Counted from the first letter of the stretch, positions 18,162-21,102 are shown. The stretch: 64,000 nucleotides of DNA from Parcubacteria group bacterium ADurb.Bin305 (GCA_002069525.1 MWBJ01000001.1:21896-85895); one strand, 5' to 3'. Translations and numbers: made by a program. The notes: generated by a model not told the origin, from the sequence alone.

Positions 18162-18865
18162 ATTGCTTCAAAATTATTTTTTTGATCTATCGTAACAAAA
18201 CCATCTTTAGACAATTGAAGAATAGCTAAAAAGGTCAAAATCAAATCAGTTTTTCTTAAGGGGTCAGCTACTAGGTCTTCTAAAGTATAAGTTTGATTGT
18301 GAGCTAAACGAGATAACAAACTTTTAATTCGTTCCTCAAGAGAAATCCTTTTATTAATTTTGTGTTCCTCTAATTCTTCTTCTGGCTCTAAAATACTAGT
18401 GAGCTTCTGAAAGGATTGATAGAGATCAAAAGCGGTTAAATTAGGAGGGGGTAAAAATATAGCTACATCTTCATTATTCAAAGGTCGCGCATACAAAAAT
18501 TTTTTTTGTTGAATTTGTTCATTAAGATATTGACCTTGCTCTCGGAAAAATTTGTAAAGAGTTAATCTTTCCTCTAAGTTTAGCACTTCACTTTCTTCAT
18601 CTGAAGTTAACTCTAAATTCGGTAATAAAGCCTTAGATTTTATCAAAAGCAAGGTGGCCAAAATTACTAAAAAGTCAGCTAATTCTGTGGGAGAAAAATG
18701 CGTGGTATTATTGGCCACATAGTTAGTGTAATCACTAGTAATTTGAGCCAAAGAAATTTGAGTAATTTCTAAATTTTTACTAGTAATTAATTGCAGTAAT
18801 AAATCTAAGGGACCATTAAAAGCAGCTACAGTTACCTGATACATAATTTTAAAACTATTTAACAA
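18143..18865 (-). CDS. scpA: segregation and condensation protein A
   Basis: 240-aa protein immediately upstream of and overlapping scpB. ScpA-like N-terminal LDLLLQLI segment. Confidence 0.7.
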   Translation of the reverse strand: MLNSFKIMYQVTVAAFNGPLDLLLQLITSKNLEITQISLAQITSDYTNYVANNTTHFSPTELADFLVILATLLLIKSKALLPNLELTSDEESEVLNLEERLTLYKFFREQGQYLNEQIQQKKFLYARPLNNEDVAIFLPPPNLTAFDLYQSFQKLTSILEPEEELEEHKINKRISLEERIKSLLSRLAHNQTYTLEDLVADPLRKTDLILTFLAILQLSKDGFVTIDQKNNFEAIWITSL

Positions 18866-19004
18866 ATAATATAGTCAGGCCAACTTTAATTCCATCTAAT
18901 ATTTTGTTATCTAATAAAAATCTATATTGTTTTGTCTGGCTACATCTGACATTATACTATCATTTGACAAATAAAATTACAAATTACTAATGACAAATGG
19001 ATGA

Positions 19005-19290
19005 ACTTGTCATTCTGAGCAGAGCGAGGAATCTTTCCTTTTTTGTTATTCTGAGGAGCAAAGCGACAAAGAATCTCTGGGTTGGTCTCAAAAACTTCTT
19101 GAAAAATAAATTAACGACATCGTAAGTCGTTAATTGAAGAATCTCTGGGCTGGTCTCAGATACCTTGTAAAAAGGAATCTCGCCTTCGCGAGAGATCCTT
19201 CACTTCGTTCAGGATGACAGAACAAGGAGATCCTTCGCCTATGGCTCAGGGCGACTGAAACAAGGAAAGATTCTTCACTTTATTCAAAGT
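19005..19290. repeat. mosaic of short direct and inverted repeats (REP/MITE-like), GC-richer than its surroundings
   Basis: gtcattctgagcagagcgagg (19009-) has an approximate inverse copy ccttcacttcgttcaggatgac (19196-). Direct repeat aagaatctctgggYtggtctcaRa at 19068 and 19137. At least 7 copies of a GAATC/GATTC-centred core. Perfect hairpins at 19111-19133 (ttaacgac..gtcgttaa) and 19174-19198. Confidence 0.5.
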
Positions 19291-19358
19291 ACCAATAATT
19301 AATAAGGGCCCCCCTATGTATCTCGTCTTCCACAGGAATAAACTAAATATTATTTTTA

Positions 19359-19940
19359 TTATATCTTTTTTCTGGAAAATTCGCAACCACAATAATGCTG
19401 ATGATATAAATGATATTTAGCTAGTAATTCTTTCTCTCGCTGATAAGCTCTTTGGGAATTTAAATCAAAAGTTATATATTTAATCGGATGTTTTTTATAT
19501 TGTCGGGACAATTTATGGCCGACTTCATTAATAAACCTTGTATCTTTAAACATATTAATGCTTAAGGTAGTAGCTACTTGATTAAAGCGATTCATTTGAG
19601 CAAAAATAAATAATTGCCGCAAACGCCAAAAAAAACATTGCTGACAACGCTGACTATTTTCCTTATAATCCGCAGGTGATAAAAATAAATTTTTCGATAA
19701 ATACGTTAACCATTTATTATGATCATAAGCGCCATAATATACCTTAATAGAATAAATTTTAGCAATTTTTTTCACCTCAAGTTTTCTTTTCTCATACTCT
19801 GATCTGGGAAAAATATTAGGATTATAAAAATATAAAGCTAATTGAGACCGTAAATATAAATTACGCCTTTGATAATAATTATCTAAATATTCCAAAATAG
19901 GCAAAGCGCATGGGGCACAACAGGTATGAAGAAGTAACAT
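19359..19940 (-). CDS. queH: epoxyqueuosine reductase QueH (DUF208)
   Basis: Starts at internal Met MLLLHTCCAPCALPILEY (the HxCCAPC signature of QueH), with further conserved Cys residues downstream. The track ORF extended 77 codons upstream into the tgt C-terminus. The start is reassigned to 19940. Confidence 0.7.
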   Translation of the reverse strand: MLLLHTCCAPCALPILEYLDNYYQRRNLYLRSQLALYFYNPNIFPRSEYEKRKLEVKKIAKIYSIKVYYGAYDHNKWLTYLSKNLFLSPADYKENSQRCQQCFFWRLRQLFIFAQMNRFNQVATTLSINMFKDTRFINEVGHKLSRQYKKHPIKYITFDLNSQRAYQREKELLAKYHLYHQHYCGCEFSRKKI

Positions 19941-19944
19941 AAAA

Positions 19945-21102
19945 TTAAATATTTTCCCGTAAGCGATGAAGTAATTGAGTAATAAAATATAAATTATGCC
20001 AAGTAGCCAACCTAAAATATAAAGGTTCCTTAATGAGATAAAGATGATGCAAATAAGCTCGAGAAAAGTTTTGACAAGTATAACAATTGCACTCGTGATC
20101 AATCGGAAATTTATCTGCAGCAAAACAACTATTACTAATTTTGAGAAGACCTTTGCGGTATTCTGATTCAAAACTAATATCAGAACCGGAAGAATTATCC
20201 CCGATTACCAAGCGACCATTATACAAAGCACCGTGACGAGCTAATCTAGCCGGACTAACACAATCAAACATATCCACCCCCCGTTTAATCACTTCGATTA
20301 TATCGTAAGGGGAAGCGCCTAACCCCATGGTATAAAGAGGTTTGTCATAAGGAATAGATGAACGCAAAGCATCCAGAATTTCTAAAGTGCGTGGCATATC
20401 GTAGCCAATTGTTTCACCGCCCAGAGCCAAGCCATCAAATGGCAAACTAGTAATAAAATTAAGGGCTTCCAAGCGTAAGTCTAAAAAAGAACCCCCTTGA
20501 ACAATACCAAAAATTAAAGTGTTATTTTCTGGCGCCATTTTTTTGAGTTCTTGAAATCTTTTCAACGATTTTAACGCCCACTTCTTAGTTCTTTCTAAAC
20601 TTAATTTAACATAATTTTTGTTGTCTAAATTAGGACTACAGTCATCAAAAGCCATAATAATATCGGAACCTATCTTAAACTGAATCTCAATCGCTTTCTC
20701 GGCGTCAATAAAATGCTTCGAACCATCGTAGGGAGAAATAAACTCAATTCCCTTATCTGTCACTTTGCTCAAAACACCTAATTTAGCAGAGTATCTTTTT
20801 TGAGAAAAACTCCAGCCTTGGAACCCCCCTGAATCACTTAAAATAGTTTTGGGCCAACCCATATAATTATGAATGCCCCCGAAAGAATTTATTAATTCTT
20901 CGGTGGGCCTCAAATGTAAATGTAAAGCGTTCACTAAAATAATTTCTATACCTATTTCCTGCAAATCTTGGGGACTCAAAGCTTTAACAGCAGCTTTCGT
21001 GGCTGGAGGCATAAAAACAGGTGTTTGAAATTTACCATGATTAGTAATTACCTCTCCAGCACGAGAAAAATTATATTTTGATTTTTTAAGGATATTAAAC
21101 AT
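19945..21102 (-). CDS. tgt: queuine tRNA-ribosyltransferase
   Basis: FQTPVFMPPATKAAVKAL and IILVNALHLHLRP blocks. C-terminal zinc site CNCYTCQNFSRAYLHHL. Confidence 0.9.
   Translation of the reverse strand: MFNILKKSKYNFSRAGEVITNHGKFQTPVFMPPATKAAVKALSPQDLQEIGIEIILVNALHLHLRPTEELINSFGGIHNYMGWPKTILSDSGGFQGWSFSQKRYSAKLGVLSKVTDKGIEFISPYDGSKHFIDAEKAIEIQFKIGSDIIMAFDDCSPNLDNKNYVKLSLERTKKWALKSLKRFQELKKMAPENNTLIFGIVQGGSFLDLRLEALNFITSLPFDGLALGGETIGYDMPRTLEILDALRSSIPYDKPLYTMGLGASPYDIIEVIKRGVDMFDCVSPARLARHGALYNGRLVIGDNSSGSDISFESEYRKGLLKISNSCFAADKFPIDHECNCYTCQNFSRAYLHHLYLIKEPLYFRLATWHNLYFITQLLHRLRENI

What the first reader, a model, noticed from the sequence alone, without database searches (positions are those of the whole stretch)
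19005..19290. Roughly 300-bp GC-richer mosaic of short direct and inverted repeats in the 490-bp scpA-queH gap
The 490-bp intergenic region is unusually long for this compact genome and is GC-richer than its flanks. It contains an inverted pair gtcattctgagcagagcgagg / ccttcacttcgttcaggatgac, a direct pair aagaatctctgggYtggtctcaRa (19068 and 19137), at least seven copies of a GAATC/GATTC-centred ~12-nt core, and two near-perfect hairpins (19111-19133 and 19174-19198). The gtcattctgagc...gaagaatc-type units look like a dispersed short-repeat family that produces spurious ORFs in uncultivated-bacteria assemblies. The region could be a REP/MITE-like element cluster, a structured ncRNA, or a recombination or insertion scar.
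Basis: seen in the sequence. Interest (0 to 1): 0.5.

Follow-up and report, generated by a model that had tools for sequence, protein, structure and literature searches.

The report
Strain-variable cluster of REP-like hairpin repeats
The GC-rich patch between queH and scpA is a dispensable pile-up of a short hairpin repeat that is scattered through bacteria of many phyla and their phages; it is ordinary selfish or structural DNA, but tracing it showed that the repeat flanks a small nuclease gene that may be what spreads it.

Summary
Window 19005-19295 is a 41.6% GC mosaic in the longest gap of the window that holds no RNA gene (514 nt).

It contains four significant copies and one decayed copy of a 25-27-nt hairpin unit, T-GTC-ATYCT-GA-RC-GAA-GY-GA-AGRAT-C-TC. 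Two copies lie on the + strand at the left and three on the - strand at the right. Between them are a duplicated 22-mer and two further hairpins.

It is not a conserved RNA. Rfam finds nothing. Strains whose flanks are 99-99.8% identical carry a 258-nt gap with no unit. More distant relatives have a different gap or secA directly upstream of scpA.

The unit is a widely dispersed repeat. The 25-mer pattern hits 69 viral contigs and at least 120 stretches in genomes of more than 15 phyla, with unrelated flanks. Both stems covary almost perfectly, and inverted doublets predominate.

The closest described kind is the CGTC/TGTC-tagged REP superfamily, which reportedly lacks a transposase. Here, a ~95-aa GIY-YIG nuclease gene is bracketed by inverted units in every lineage examined. 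That the nuclease moves the units is inference. None is encoded in the window.

Verdict: a REP/BIME-like cluster, a new variant of a known kind. It probably gives queH terminator-like hairpins incidentally.

The parts
18892..19324 (.). Strain-variable block. In strains with 99-99.8% identical flanks it is replaced by a 176-nt version that has no hairpin unit. The non-homologous core, 19001-19293, is bounded by the outermost inverted units.
18964..19000 (.). Period-7 tandem tract (TGACAAA / AAATTAC). It lies in the scpA-proximal, diverged-but-alignable part of the block. The same kind of tract is part of the sister mosaic in L198.
   Evidence: TRF; L198 sequence; period-7 arrays enriched next to units.
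19005..19037 (+). Unit A, the left outermost unit: TGTC tag, ATTCT-GA-GC-AGA-GC-GA-GGAAT, tail CTT.
   Evidence: R1 37.6 bits, E 2.8e-7.
19041..19079 (+). Unit B, with a 3+3-nt expansion of the inner stem region (GTTATTCTGAGGAGCAAAGCGACAAAGAATCTC). The same expanded variant is intact in L196.
   Evidence: 19.9 bits, E 0.009..
19069..19090 (+). Direct repeat copy 1: the 3' arm of unit B plus CTCTGGGTTGGTCTCA.
19109..19135 (-). Perfect 10-bp AT-rich hairpin followed by TATTTTTCAA on the - strand. It is terminator-like for queH. It lies in the 46 nt (19091-19136) between the two copies of the direct repeat and is absent from L196 and L198.
   Evidence: (DNA -7.8 kcal/mol, z -4.05).
19137..19158 (+). 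Direct repeat copy 2: an orphan 3' arm (no 5' arm) plus CTCTGGGCTGGTCTCA. It starts the ~84-nt composite shared with L196 and L198.
19173..19201 (-). Palindrome GGAATCTCGCCTTCGCGAGAGATCC. The core stem TCTCGC-GAAG-GCGAGA (19193-19178) is followed by TTCCTTTTTA on the - strand, making a second terminator-like site. It is conserved in L196 and L198.
   Evidence: (-8.6 kcal/mol, z -3.31).
19190..19222 (-). Unit C, a perfect family member (TGTCATCCTGAACGAAGTGAAGGATCTC). Both stems carry compensated variants.
   Evidence: 49.3 bits, E 3e-10.
19225..19259 (-). Unit D (GTCGCCCTGAGCCATAGGCGAAGGATCTC), with a 3-bp inner stem and an ATA loop.
   Evidence: 17.5 bits, E 0.036.
19268..19290 (-). Unit E, decayed, the right outermost unit. 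Together with unit A it forms the 38-nt, 74% complementary terminal inverted repeat (19007-19044 / 19258-19295).
   Evidence: 8.1 bits, E 8.4, not significant alone; I1; homologous end in L198.

Best explanation
The mosaic is a BIME-like cluster of short REP-type palindromic units. The units belong to a very widely dispersed family.

**The unit.** It carries an unpaired T-GTC tag. A 5-bp stem follows, starting A-T, T-A. Inside that are a symmetric GA/GA internal loop, a 2-bp inner stem closed by a GAA loop, and a CTC tail. In the window the units are arranged as nested inverted copies, + on the left and - on the right.

**Status at this locus.** This is non-essential, selfish or structural DNA sitting in a permissive spot between the end of the queA-tgt-queH operon and the scpA promoter. 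It came and went as a block by recombination between strains. It has also been rearranged internally: a 22-37-nt duplication surrounds an extra hairpin.

**Shown:**
- membership of the units in the family
- the covarying hairpin
- the presence/absence polymorphism between strains
- sharing of composite pieces with other loci

**Inferred, local effect.** Read on the - strand, its hairpins followed by T-runs probably terminate or stabilise the queH transcript. This is a by-product and not the reason the element exists.

**Inferred, spread.** The family is probably spread or processed in trans by a small GIY-YIG nuclease. 'Autonomous' copies consist of that gene bracketed by a + unit and a - unit, by analogy with REP/RAYT 'REPtrons'. 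No such gene lies in this window.
For: **Family membership.** R1, a model built from copies in other genomes, finds only the mosaic in 64 kb.

**Dispersal.** The 25-mer pattern occurs in 69 viral contigs and in at least 120 genome stretches. These come from Saccharibacteria, Gracilibacteria, Parcubacteria, Acidobacteriota, Nitrospirota, Bacteroidota, Chloroflexota, Firmicutes, Verrucomicrobiota, Gemmatimonadota, Omnitrophota, Proteobacteria and others. Flanks are unrelated. It also occurs on plasmids of cultured cyanobacteria, Hymenobacter and Granulicella.

**Hairpin covariation.** In 217 non-redundant matches where four positions were left free:
- positions 6/22 are T-A 129, C-G 87, T.G 1, C.A 0 (Fisher 5e-61)
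- positions 11/17 are G-C 161, A-T 53, G.T 2, A.C 1 (Fisher 5e-47)
- the two pairs assort independently

**REP-like behaviour.**
- 73% of units lie outside crude ORFs.
- There is no orientation bias relative to genes.
- Among neighbours within 150 nt, +/- inverted pairs number 59, -/+ pairs 16 and tandem pairs 7, with spacers mostly 15-45 nt.

**Dispensability.** Four assemblies carry the long allele and four the short one, inside 99-99.8% identical flanks. The short allele has no unit. Relatives at 79% and ~55% ScpA identity have other gap contents.

**Composite shared elsewhere.** L196 lies downstream of a pilin-like gene and L198 in a uvrA-uvrC gap. They share ~84 nt at 85-88% identity, plus the right end of the mosaic.

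**Terminator-like sites.** Two are found on the - strand against 0.4 expected. None is found in the short allele.

**GIY-YIG link.**
- All 5 GIY-YIG genes (PF01541) in unit-seeded loci are bracketed by units.
- In loci seeded on the protein alone, units flank the gene on both sides in seven lineages (Melioribacter, Ignavibacteria, Deltaproteobacteria, Coleofasciculus, two unnamed metagenome contigs L216 and L218, and a viral contig L199 that is the same contig as unit-seeded L064). An eighth lineage (L219) has only one weak upstream hit.
- In the three 20-kb loci, 11 of 12 R1 hits lie within 160 nt of the gene, which is 3% of the DNA.
Against: - Single units are only marginally stable under nearest-neighbour DNA parameters (-0.8 to -1.9 kcal/mol, z about 0). 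The hairpin therefore rests on covariation and not on energy.
- No other copy lies in the 64-kb window. Copy number in this genome is unknown and may be very low.
- The strain polymorphism is a block replacement inside a diverged segment. It is not a clean insertion with a footprint, so it does not show transposition.
- No GIY-YIG gene, RAYT or other transposase lies in the window or was recurrent near units. Association does not show that the nuclease moves the units; the gene might instead home into doublets.
- Terminator function is untested. The same palindrome lies in the opposite orientation relative to the upstream gene in L196.
Confidence: 0.8

Rival explanations
1. It is a structured non-coding RNA or cis-regulatory element: a leader of scpA/scpB, or a 3' UTR element or riboswitch of the queuosine operon.
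For: - The region folds well (z -4.9).
- It lies between two co-oriented genes.
- Compensatory changes preserve each unit's stems.
Against: - No Rfam match even at E 10.
- It folds equally well on both strands, which marks a DNA palindrome.
- Units sit on both strands of the mosaic.
- Family-wide, units show no orientation preference relative to genes.
- The whole mosaic is missing in strains with 99-99.8% identical flanks.
- It is not conserved in relatives.
- It is downstream of queH, so it cannot be the queH leader.
Confidence: 0.05
2. It is a functional, exapted terminator/insulator module. The repeats are kept here because they end queH transcription and protect the 3' end of the mRNA, as proposed for many REPs.
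For: - Two terminator-like hairpins with T-runs lie on the sense (-) strand, against 0.4 expected.
- The short allele has no terminator-like site.
- REPs lie mostly downstream of ORFs and are thought to act as RNA hairpins (PMC3733652).
Against: - Short-allele strains do without it.
- One of the two hairpins is a local insertion absent from sister mosaics.
- The shared palindrome lies in the other orientation relative to the upstream gene in L196.
- The scan is a consensus match only.
Confidence: 0.12
3. It is a recombination or assembly artefact, or a scar of a rearrangement without any repeat-element biology.
For: - The queH|scpA junction is a lineage-specific synteny breakpoint. Relatives at ~55% ScpA identity have secA 6-28 nt upstream of scpA.
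- The variable block has sharp borders inside near-identical flanks, as expected for recombinational exchange.
Against: - The same mosaic is assembled independently in the window, L003, L004 and L197.
- Its units match a family model built from unrelated genomes.
- Composite pieces recur at other loci.
Confidence: 0.03

Closest known systems
CGTC-tagged REPs (Di Nocera, De Gregorio & Rocco 2013, PMC3733652). These include Neisseria dRS3 and Rickettsia RPE-4/RPE-6.
   Same: - A short palindromic unit with an unpaired tag at one end. The paper states that CGTC is 'changed to TGTC' in many repeats.
- The stem almost invariably starts with complementary A-T residues at positions 1 and 2.
- There is a short unpaired tail.
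- Units are mostly intergenic.
- They are organised mainly as inverted dimers, sometimes in large clusters.
- No RAYT or classical transposase sits next to them.
   Different: - The stem is interrupted by an invariant GA/GA internal loop, giving 5 + 2 + 2 positions in place of 8-9 continuous pairs.
- The loop is GAA (3 nt), not 4-5 nt.
- The tail is CTC, not CCA.
- One near-identical sequence is spread over more than 15 phyla, Patescibacteria and phage contigs. The published families are mostly alpha-proteobacterial (5 phyla).
[quoted passage not shown]
- I could not see the paper's Figure 2 consensus sequences. The unit's strings are absent from its supplementary text.
REPIN / RAYT systems and REPtrons (Bertels & Rainey 2011, PMC3116915; PMC3337134)
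   Same: - Inverted doublets of a short palindrome separated by a short spacer are the commonest arrangement.
- A small nuclease-type gene is bracketed by inverted copies of the repeat.
   Different: - The tag is not GTAG.
- The associated protein is a GIY-YIG nuclease of about 95 aa, not an IS200/IS605-type HUH tyrosine transposase.
- REPIN-RAYT systems are described as lineage-specific and vertically inherited. This unit is nearly identical across phyla.
BIMEs (bacterial interspersed mosaic elements) and MITEs
   Same: - It is a mosaic of REP units in both orientations, with other short motifs between them.
- The whole element is about 290 nt, non-coding, with terminal inverted repeats, and is strain-variable.
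   Different: - No target-site duplication is seen at the outer borders.
- The terminal repeats are simply the outermost copies of the internal unit.
- No related transposase with the same ends was found.
d(GCGAAGC) mini-hairpin (Hirao and co-workers, 1990s; recalled from memory, not checked here)
   Same: The commonest inner stem-loop of the unit is exactly GCGAAGC (173 of 329 units). It has compensated variants such as ACGAAGT.
   Different: Here it sits inside a longer, tagged palindrome. Its exceptional stability is not captured by the energy model used.
Heptanucleotide tandem repeats: cyanobacterial STRR (from memory) and the intergenic TAACTGA repeats of Beggiatoaceae (PMC4679880, title and abstract only)
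   Same: Short period-7 tandem tracts lie in intergenic DNA next to stem-loops. Window 18964-19000 is one, and such tracts are enriched next to units.
   Different: The heptamer sequence differs from locus to locus. No link to these published families was tested.

Membership tests
CGTC-tagged REP superfamily (PMC3733652) | Unpaired terminal tag fitting CGTC (TGTC or CCTC allowed). | tested here: met
   GTC was fixed by my search pattern. The free position before it is T in 236 of 288 units and C in 32 of 288. Window units A-C read TGTC or TGTT; unit D reads AGTC.
CGTC-tagged REP superfamily (PMC3733652) | Stem of 8-9 bp whose first two positions are complementary A-T residues. | tested here: inconclusive
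   The first two pairs are A-T and T-A in 285 and 277 of 288 units. The 9 stem positions are 5 Watson-Crick pairs, an invariant GA/GA internal loop and 2 Watson-Crick pairs, so the stem is not continuous.
CGTC-tagged REP superfamily (PMC3733652) | Loop of 4-5 nt and unpaired tail fitting CCA. | tested here: not met
   The loop is GAA or variants, 3 nt, in 304 of 329 units. The tail is C-T-C (T 225 of 288, C 167 of 288).
CGTC-tagged REP superfamily (PMC3733652) | Mostly intergenic, and organised predominantly as inverted dimers. | tested here: met
   241 of 329 units lie outside crude ORFs. There are 59 +/- pairs, 16 -/+ pairs and 7 tandem pairs.
REPIN-RAYT system | GTAG tag and an associated IS200/IS605-type tyrosine (HUH) transposase flanked by the repeats. 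| tested here: not met
   The tag is TGTC. Clustering of 1,442 flanking ORFs gave no recurrent transposase. The only recurrent bracketed gene is GIY-YIG. The rest of the window's genome could not be scanned.
MITE | Terminal inverted repeats plus a target-site duplication, and multiple copies of the whole element in the genome. | tested here: inconclusive
   TIR-like ends are 38 nt and 74% complementary. No duplication is visible at the borders. The whole element is not repeated in the window. Only an ~84-nt sub-block recurs elsewhere.
Known structured RNA family (Rfam 15), including the preQ1 riboswitches expected near queuosine genes | Match to a curated covariance model. | tested here: not met
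   No match in the mosaic even at E 10. The two matches reported lie outside it and are at chance level. The whole window yields only three tRNAs.
Intrinsic (Rho-independent) terminator | GC-containing hairpin followed by a T-run on the transcribed strand, downstream of a gene. | tested here: met
   Two sites lie on the - strand downstream of queH (19193-19178 and 19135-19109), against 0.4 expected in shuffles. This is a pattern match only. In vivo termination is not testable with these tools.
GIY-YIG 'REPtron-like' element (proposed here) | A small GIY-YIG gene bracketed by a + unit upstream and a - unit downstream. | tested here: not met
   This is met in L076, L064, L087, L081, L130, L201-L204, L207, L216 and L218. 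The window has no GIY-YIG ORF. The mosaic would therefore be a non-autonomous cluster.

The most novel reading that the evidence does not exclude
The TGTC-tagged GA-hairpin repeats, of which this mosaic is a decayed cluster, are the non-autonomous partners of a ~95-aa UPF0213-like GIY-YIG nuclease. The gene sits between inverted units as a REPtron-like selfish element that crosses phylum boundaries, partly on phages. This would be the first candidate mobilising or processing enzyme for the CGTC/TGTC REP superfamily, and a new enzyme class for REP-type elements (GIY-YIG in place of HUH).
Probability: 0.35. Interest if true: 0.75.

Novelty: new variant of a known kind. Interest (0 to 1): 0.45.

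Why it matters
**For this genome.** The region should be annotated as a repeat cluster. It is not a gene or a regulatory RNA. It marks a recombination-prone, strain-variable spot at a synteny breakpoint.

**More generally.** One 25-nt hairpin with near-perfect compensatory variation is shared by bacteria of more than 15 phyla, by Patescibacteria with tiny genomes, and by phage contigs. It generates spurious ORFs in metagenome annotation, so a model such as R1 could mask them.

**The open question it touches.** The published account of the nearest repeat superfamily left open what moves these elements. The tight bracketing of a small, highly conserved GIY-YIG nuclease gene by the units makes that question directly testable.

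Tried and rejected
- **Rfam.** I searched at E 10 on the region and at gathering threshold on the whole window. Nothing relevant was found.
- **Self-similarity.** BLAST and the full covariance model were run on the 64-kb window. There are no further copies.
- **The 21-mer AGAATCTCTGGGNTGGTCTCA.** It gave 0 hits in viral contigs. In metagenomes it gave 3 hits, one of which is the same locus.
- **Recurrent transposase next to units.** None was found. The large clusters were phage structural proteins from related viral contigs.
- **GIY-YIG relatives in viral contigs.** Only 2 loci were found, one of them already known.
- **Thermodynamic support for single units.** It is weak, with z about 0.
- **Orientation of units relative to flanking genes.** There is no bias.
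- **Literature searches.** I searched for the unit sequence, for its translated peptides (RFAQND, VILSEAKN and others) and for any GIY-YIG/REP link. Nothing was found. One search failed on syntax.
- **Readings considered and rejected.**
  - queH leader or riboswitch: wrong side of the gene.
  - CRISPR array: no regular spacing.
  - Hammerhead-like core (CUGA...GAA): the conserved residues do not fit.

Full report
**1. What is in the sequence**

queA, tgt, queH, scpA and scpB all lie on the - strand. The gap runs from the queH stop (19359) to the scpA ATG (18844), which is 514 nt. It is the longest stretch of the window without a protein or RNA gene; the median gap is 44 nt. The window is 34% GC and its intergenic DNA is 26% GC. 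Positions 19005-19295 are 41.6% GC.

- The inverted pair is confirmed.
- The 22-nt direct pair lies at 19069 and 19137, with 2 matches against 0 expected.
- There are seven GAATC/GATTC/GATCC cores. The five strict ones compare with 0.39 expected.
- The two hairpins lie at 19109-19135 and 19173-19201.

**2. The repeating unit**

The mosaic resolves into copies of one 25-27-nt unit, T-GTC-ATYCT-GA-RC-GAA-GY-GA-AGRAT-C-TC. Its parts, from the 5' end, are:
- an unpaired tag
- a 5-bp outer stem
- a symmetric GA/GA internal loop
- a 2-bp inner stem with a GAA loop
- a short tail

I built a covariance model (R1) from 53 distinct copies taken only from other genomes. I ran it over the whole window without filters. 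It finds four significant hits, all in the mosaic:

| Position | Strand | E-value |
|---|---|---|
| 19190-19222 | - | 3e-10 |
| 19005-19037 | + | 2.8e-7 |
| 19041-19079 | + | 0.009 |
| 19225-19259 | - | 0.036 |

A fifth, decayed copy lies at 19268-19290 (-), E 8. The two + units are on the left and the three - units on the right. The outermost pair forms the 38-nt terminal inverted repeat reported. This layout explains why the whole region folds as one long imperfect palindrome equally well on both strands, z -4.87 and -4.78. That symmetry is the signature of a DNA-level palindrome and not of a strand-specific RNA.

**3. It is not a conserved element of this locus**

The identical ScpB protein occurs on contigs of two kinds.
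- The window, L003, L004 and L197 have the 514-nt gap with the mosaic (L197).
- L001, L002, L005 and L006 have a 258-nt gap.

The flanks are 99-99.8% identical. Between window 18892 and 19324 the two alleles differ as follows:
- The scpA-proximal ~110 nt aligns at only about 78%.
- The 285-nt core, bounded exactly by the outermost units, is replaced by about 70 nt of unrelated sequence.

The short allele has no unit and no terminator-like hairpin. This pattern is a block exchange by homologous recombination. It is not a clean insertion.

Further out, the gap content changes again:
- A relative with 79% ScpA identity keeps queH next to scpA. Its gap is a different 220 nt, with one degenerate unit (E 0.18) and a different heptamer tract.
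- Relatives at about 55% identity have secA 6-28 nt upstream of scpA.

The junction is therefore a lineage-specific synteny breakpoint with fast-changing content. The names that sources give to ScpA relatives (Paceibacterota, Minisyncoccia, Parcubacteria) place the organism in the Patescibacteria.

**4. The unit is a widely dispersed family**

The pattern GTCATYCTGARCGAAGYGAAGRATC gave 69 IMG/VR contigs. The hits come from Saccharibacteria, Gracilibacteria, Parcubacteria, Acidobacteriota, Nitrospirota, Bacteroidota, Ignavibacteria, Chloroflexota, Firmicutes, Verrucomicrobiota, Gemmatimonadota, Omnitrophota, Armatimonadota, Nitrospinota, Proteobacteria and others. Flanks are unrelated and range from AT-rich to GC-rich. 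BLAST also finds the unit on plasmids of cultured Calothrix, Planktothrix, Oscillatoria, Hymenobacter and Granulicella, almost always unannotated.

Four positions of the pattern were left free, so they give an unbiased test of the structure. In 217 non-redundant copies:
- The outer pair is T-A 129, C-G 87, T.G 1, C.A 0 (Fisher 5e-61).
- The inner pair is G-C 161, A-T 53, G.T 2, A.C 1 (Fisher 5e-47).
- The two pairs assort independently.

Window unit C carries both compensated variants.

With a looser structural search, 329 units were found in 189 loci:
- 73% lie outside crude ORFs.
- Orientation relative to neighbouring genes is unbiased.
- Neighbours within 150 nt are mostly inverted +/- pairs (59, against 16 -/+ and 7 tandem), with 15-45-nt spacers. 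This is the REPIN-like doublet arrangement.

One caveat applies. Nearest-neighbour DNA energies for single units are weak (-0.8 to -1.9 kcal/mol, z about 0). The MFE shape is the proposed one for the consensus (both strands) and for units A and B. Unit C forms only the outer stem, and units D and E fold differently. The commonest inner hairpin is GCGAAGC. From memory, that is the unusually stable DNA mini-hairpin of Hirao and co-workers, which the energy model does not capture.

**5. The mosaic is a lineage-specific composite**

A 21-mer from the direct repeat recovered two other loci besides the same locus:
- L196 lies downstream of a pilin-like gene.
- L198 lies in a 480-nt uvrA-uvrC gap. 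It comes from the same JGI series of metagenome sample numbers as L001 and L003.

Both carry unit + CTCTGGGCTGGTCTCAGATACC... + GGAATCTCGCCTTCGCGAGAGATCC + a reverse unit. They are 85-88% identical to window 19136-19218. L198 also shares the right end of the mosaic and ATGACAAAT/AATTAC heptamer tracts like window 18964-19000.

The alignment shows that in the window this composite is interrupted. The 22-mer (37 nt at 81%) is duplicated around an extra AT-rich perfect hairpin.

L198's 77-aa ORF, made only of repeats, is a called protein in JGI and ENA data. This bears out the spurious-ORF remark for the family, though not for this locus.

**6. Probable local effect**

Read on the - strand, which is the sense strand for queH, the mosaic offers two terminator-like sites, against 0.4 expected in shuffles:
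- TCTCGC-GAAG-GCGAGA followed by TTCCTTTTTA
- the 10-bp AT-rich hairpin followed by TATTTTTCAA

I infer that the mosaic terminates or stabilises the queH transcript. I regard this as incidental for three reasons:
- Short-allele strains lack it.
- One of the two hairpins is a local addition.
- In L196 the shared palindrome faces the other way relative to the upstream gene.

**7. What may spread the units**

No transposase recurs near units. However, five unit-seeded loci contain a ~95-aa GIY-YIG gene (PF01541). Every one is bracketed by a + unit on one side and a - unit on the other.

To remove the seeding bias I searched with the protein alone.
- The subfamily is very large: at least 8000 clusters at E<=1e-10, with members 60-75% identical across phyla.
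- I fetched eight lineages: Melioribacter roseus, an Ignavibacteria isolate, a Deltaproteobacterium, Coleofasciculus, three metagenome contigs (L216, L218, L219) and a viral contig (L199, the same contig as unit-seeded L064). Units flank the gene on both sides in seven of them. L219 has only one weak upstream hit.
- In the three 20-kb loci, 11 of 12 hits lie within 160 nt of the gene, which is 3% of the DNA.

At sequence level, the + unit ends 5-40 nt before the ATG. The - unit abuts or overlaps the stop codon. Further doublets often lie outside. The protein resembles the UPF0213 structural-genomics proteins 1ZG2 and 1YWL, whose function is unknown.

The association is shown. That the nuclease mobilises or processes the units is inference. 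The rival reading is that the gene homes into pre-existing doublets. The window encodes no such gene.

A further hint of DNA-level asymmetry comes from solitary units. Their GA-strand lies on the C-rich strand in 73 of 110 loci (p 8e-4). There is no bias toward the crude ORF strand.

**8. Comparison with what is known**

The nearest described kind is the CGTC-tagged REP superfamily of Di Nocera et al. 2013 (PMC3733652). Its features are:
- a CGTC tag, often TGTC
- a stem starting A-T, T-A
- a short tail
- mostly inverted dimers
- sometimes large clusters
- 'apparently lack a dedicated transposase'

The present unit meets the tag, first-pair, intergenic-location and dimer criteria. It differs in several respects:
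- the stem is interrupted by the GA/GA internal loop
- the loop is 3 nt
- the tail is CTC, not CCA
- it is distributed across many phyla and in phage contigs
- it partners with a GIY-YIG gene

It works like a REP/REPIN/BIME but fails the RAYT and GTAG criteria. I found no paper containing the unit sequence, its peptides or a GIY-YIG/REP link. The library is incomplete, so prior description cannot be excluded.

**9. Verdict**

The feature is an ordinary, dispensable repeat cluster of a known general kind.

Its unit is an unusually conserved, cross-phylum variant with a candidate nuclease partner. I rate it 'new variant of a known kind' with interest 0.45. The most novel reading still open is a GIY-YIG-based REPtron-like system, at probability about 0.35.

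Noticed in passing
Loci L076 7063-7483; L064 10727-11232; L087 6143-6606; L216 9841-10410; L218 9881-10372; L204 3910-4388; L207 3762-4453: A ~95-aa GIY-YIG (UPF0213-like) gene is bracketed by inverted copies of the hairpin unit in lineages from many phyla. In 20-kb loci seeded on the protein alone, 11 of 12 model hits lie within 160 nt of the gene.
   Followed up: yes
189 unit-bearing loci (L007-L195): Solitary units are oriented so that their GA-strand lies on the strand with negative GC skew: 73 of 110 loci with one vote each (p 8e-4), or 111 of 162 units. There is no bias relative to crude ORF orientation. The cause is unexplained.
   Followed up: partly
Window 18964-19000; L198 4020-4095; L208 250-340; many loci: Short period-7 tandem tracts sit next to hairpin units. 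Their sequence differs from locus to locus. 32 of 329 units have one within 120 nt, against 18.7 +/- 3.8 at random positions, and 23 of the 34 arrays have period 7.
   Followed up: partly
Window 18845-19358 versus L209-L215 2972-3001: The queH|scpA junction is a synteny breakpoint. Relatives with ~55% identical ScpA have secA ending 6-28 nt upstream of scpA, while the downstream genes (scpB, peptidase S11, glycosyltransferase 4, T2SSE) stay in the same order.
   Followed up: partly
Window 18892-19000: The scpA-proximal ~110 nt, the probable promoter region, is only about 78% identical between the two alleles. DNA on either side is 99-100% identical. This indicates import of the whole block from a more distant donor.
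   Followed up: partly
Window 19091-19136: A 46-nt segment with a perfect 10-bp AT-rich hairpin sits between two copies of a 22-37-nt duplication. It is absent from the otherwise homologous composites in L196 and L198. It could be an insertion with an unusually long duplication, or a slipped duplication.
   Followed up: partly
L198 4026-4259 (- strand): A 77-aa ORF made entirely of repeat units and heptamer tracts is present as a predicted protein in JGI/IMG and ENA data, in a cluster of 3 members. This is a spurious gene call caused by the repeat family.
   Followed up: yes
Window 19359-20171 and 19945-21102: The longest queH ORF (270 aa, TTG start) overlaps the end of tgt by about 230 nt. 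Public gene calls use a 193-aa QueH that starts 4 nt after tgt, so the long ORF is an artefact of start-codon choice.
   Followed up: partly
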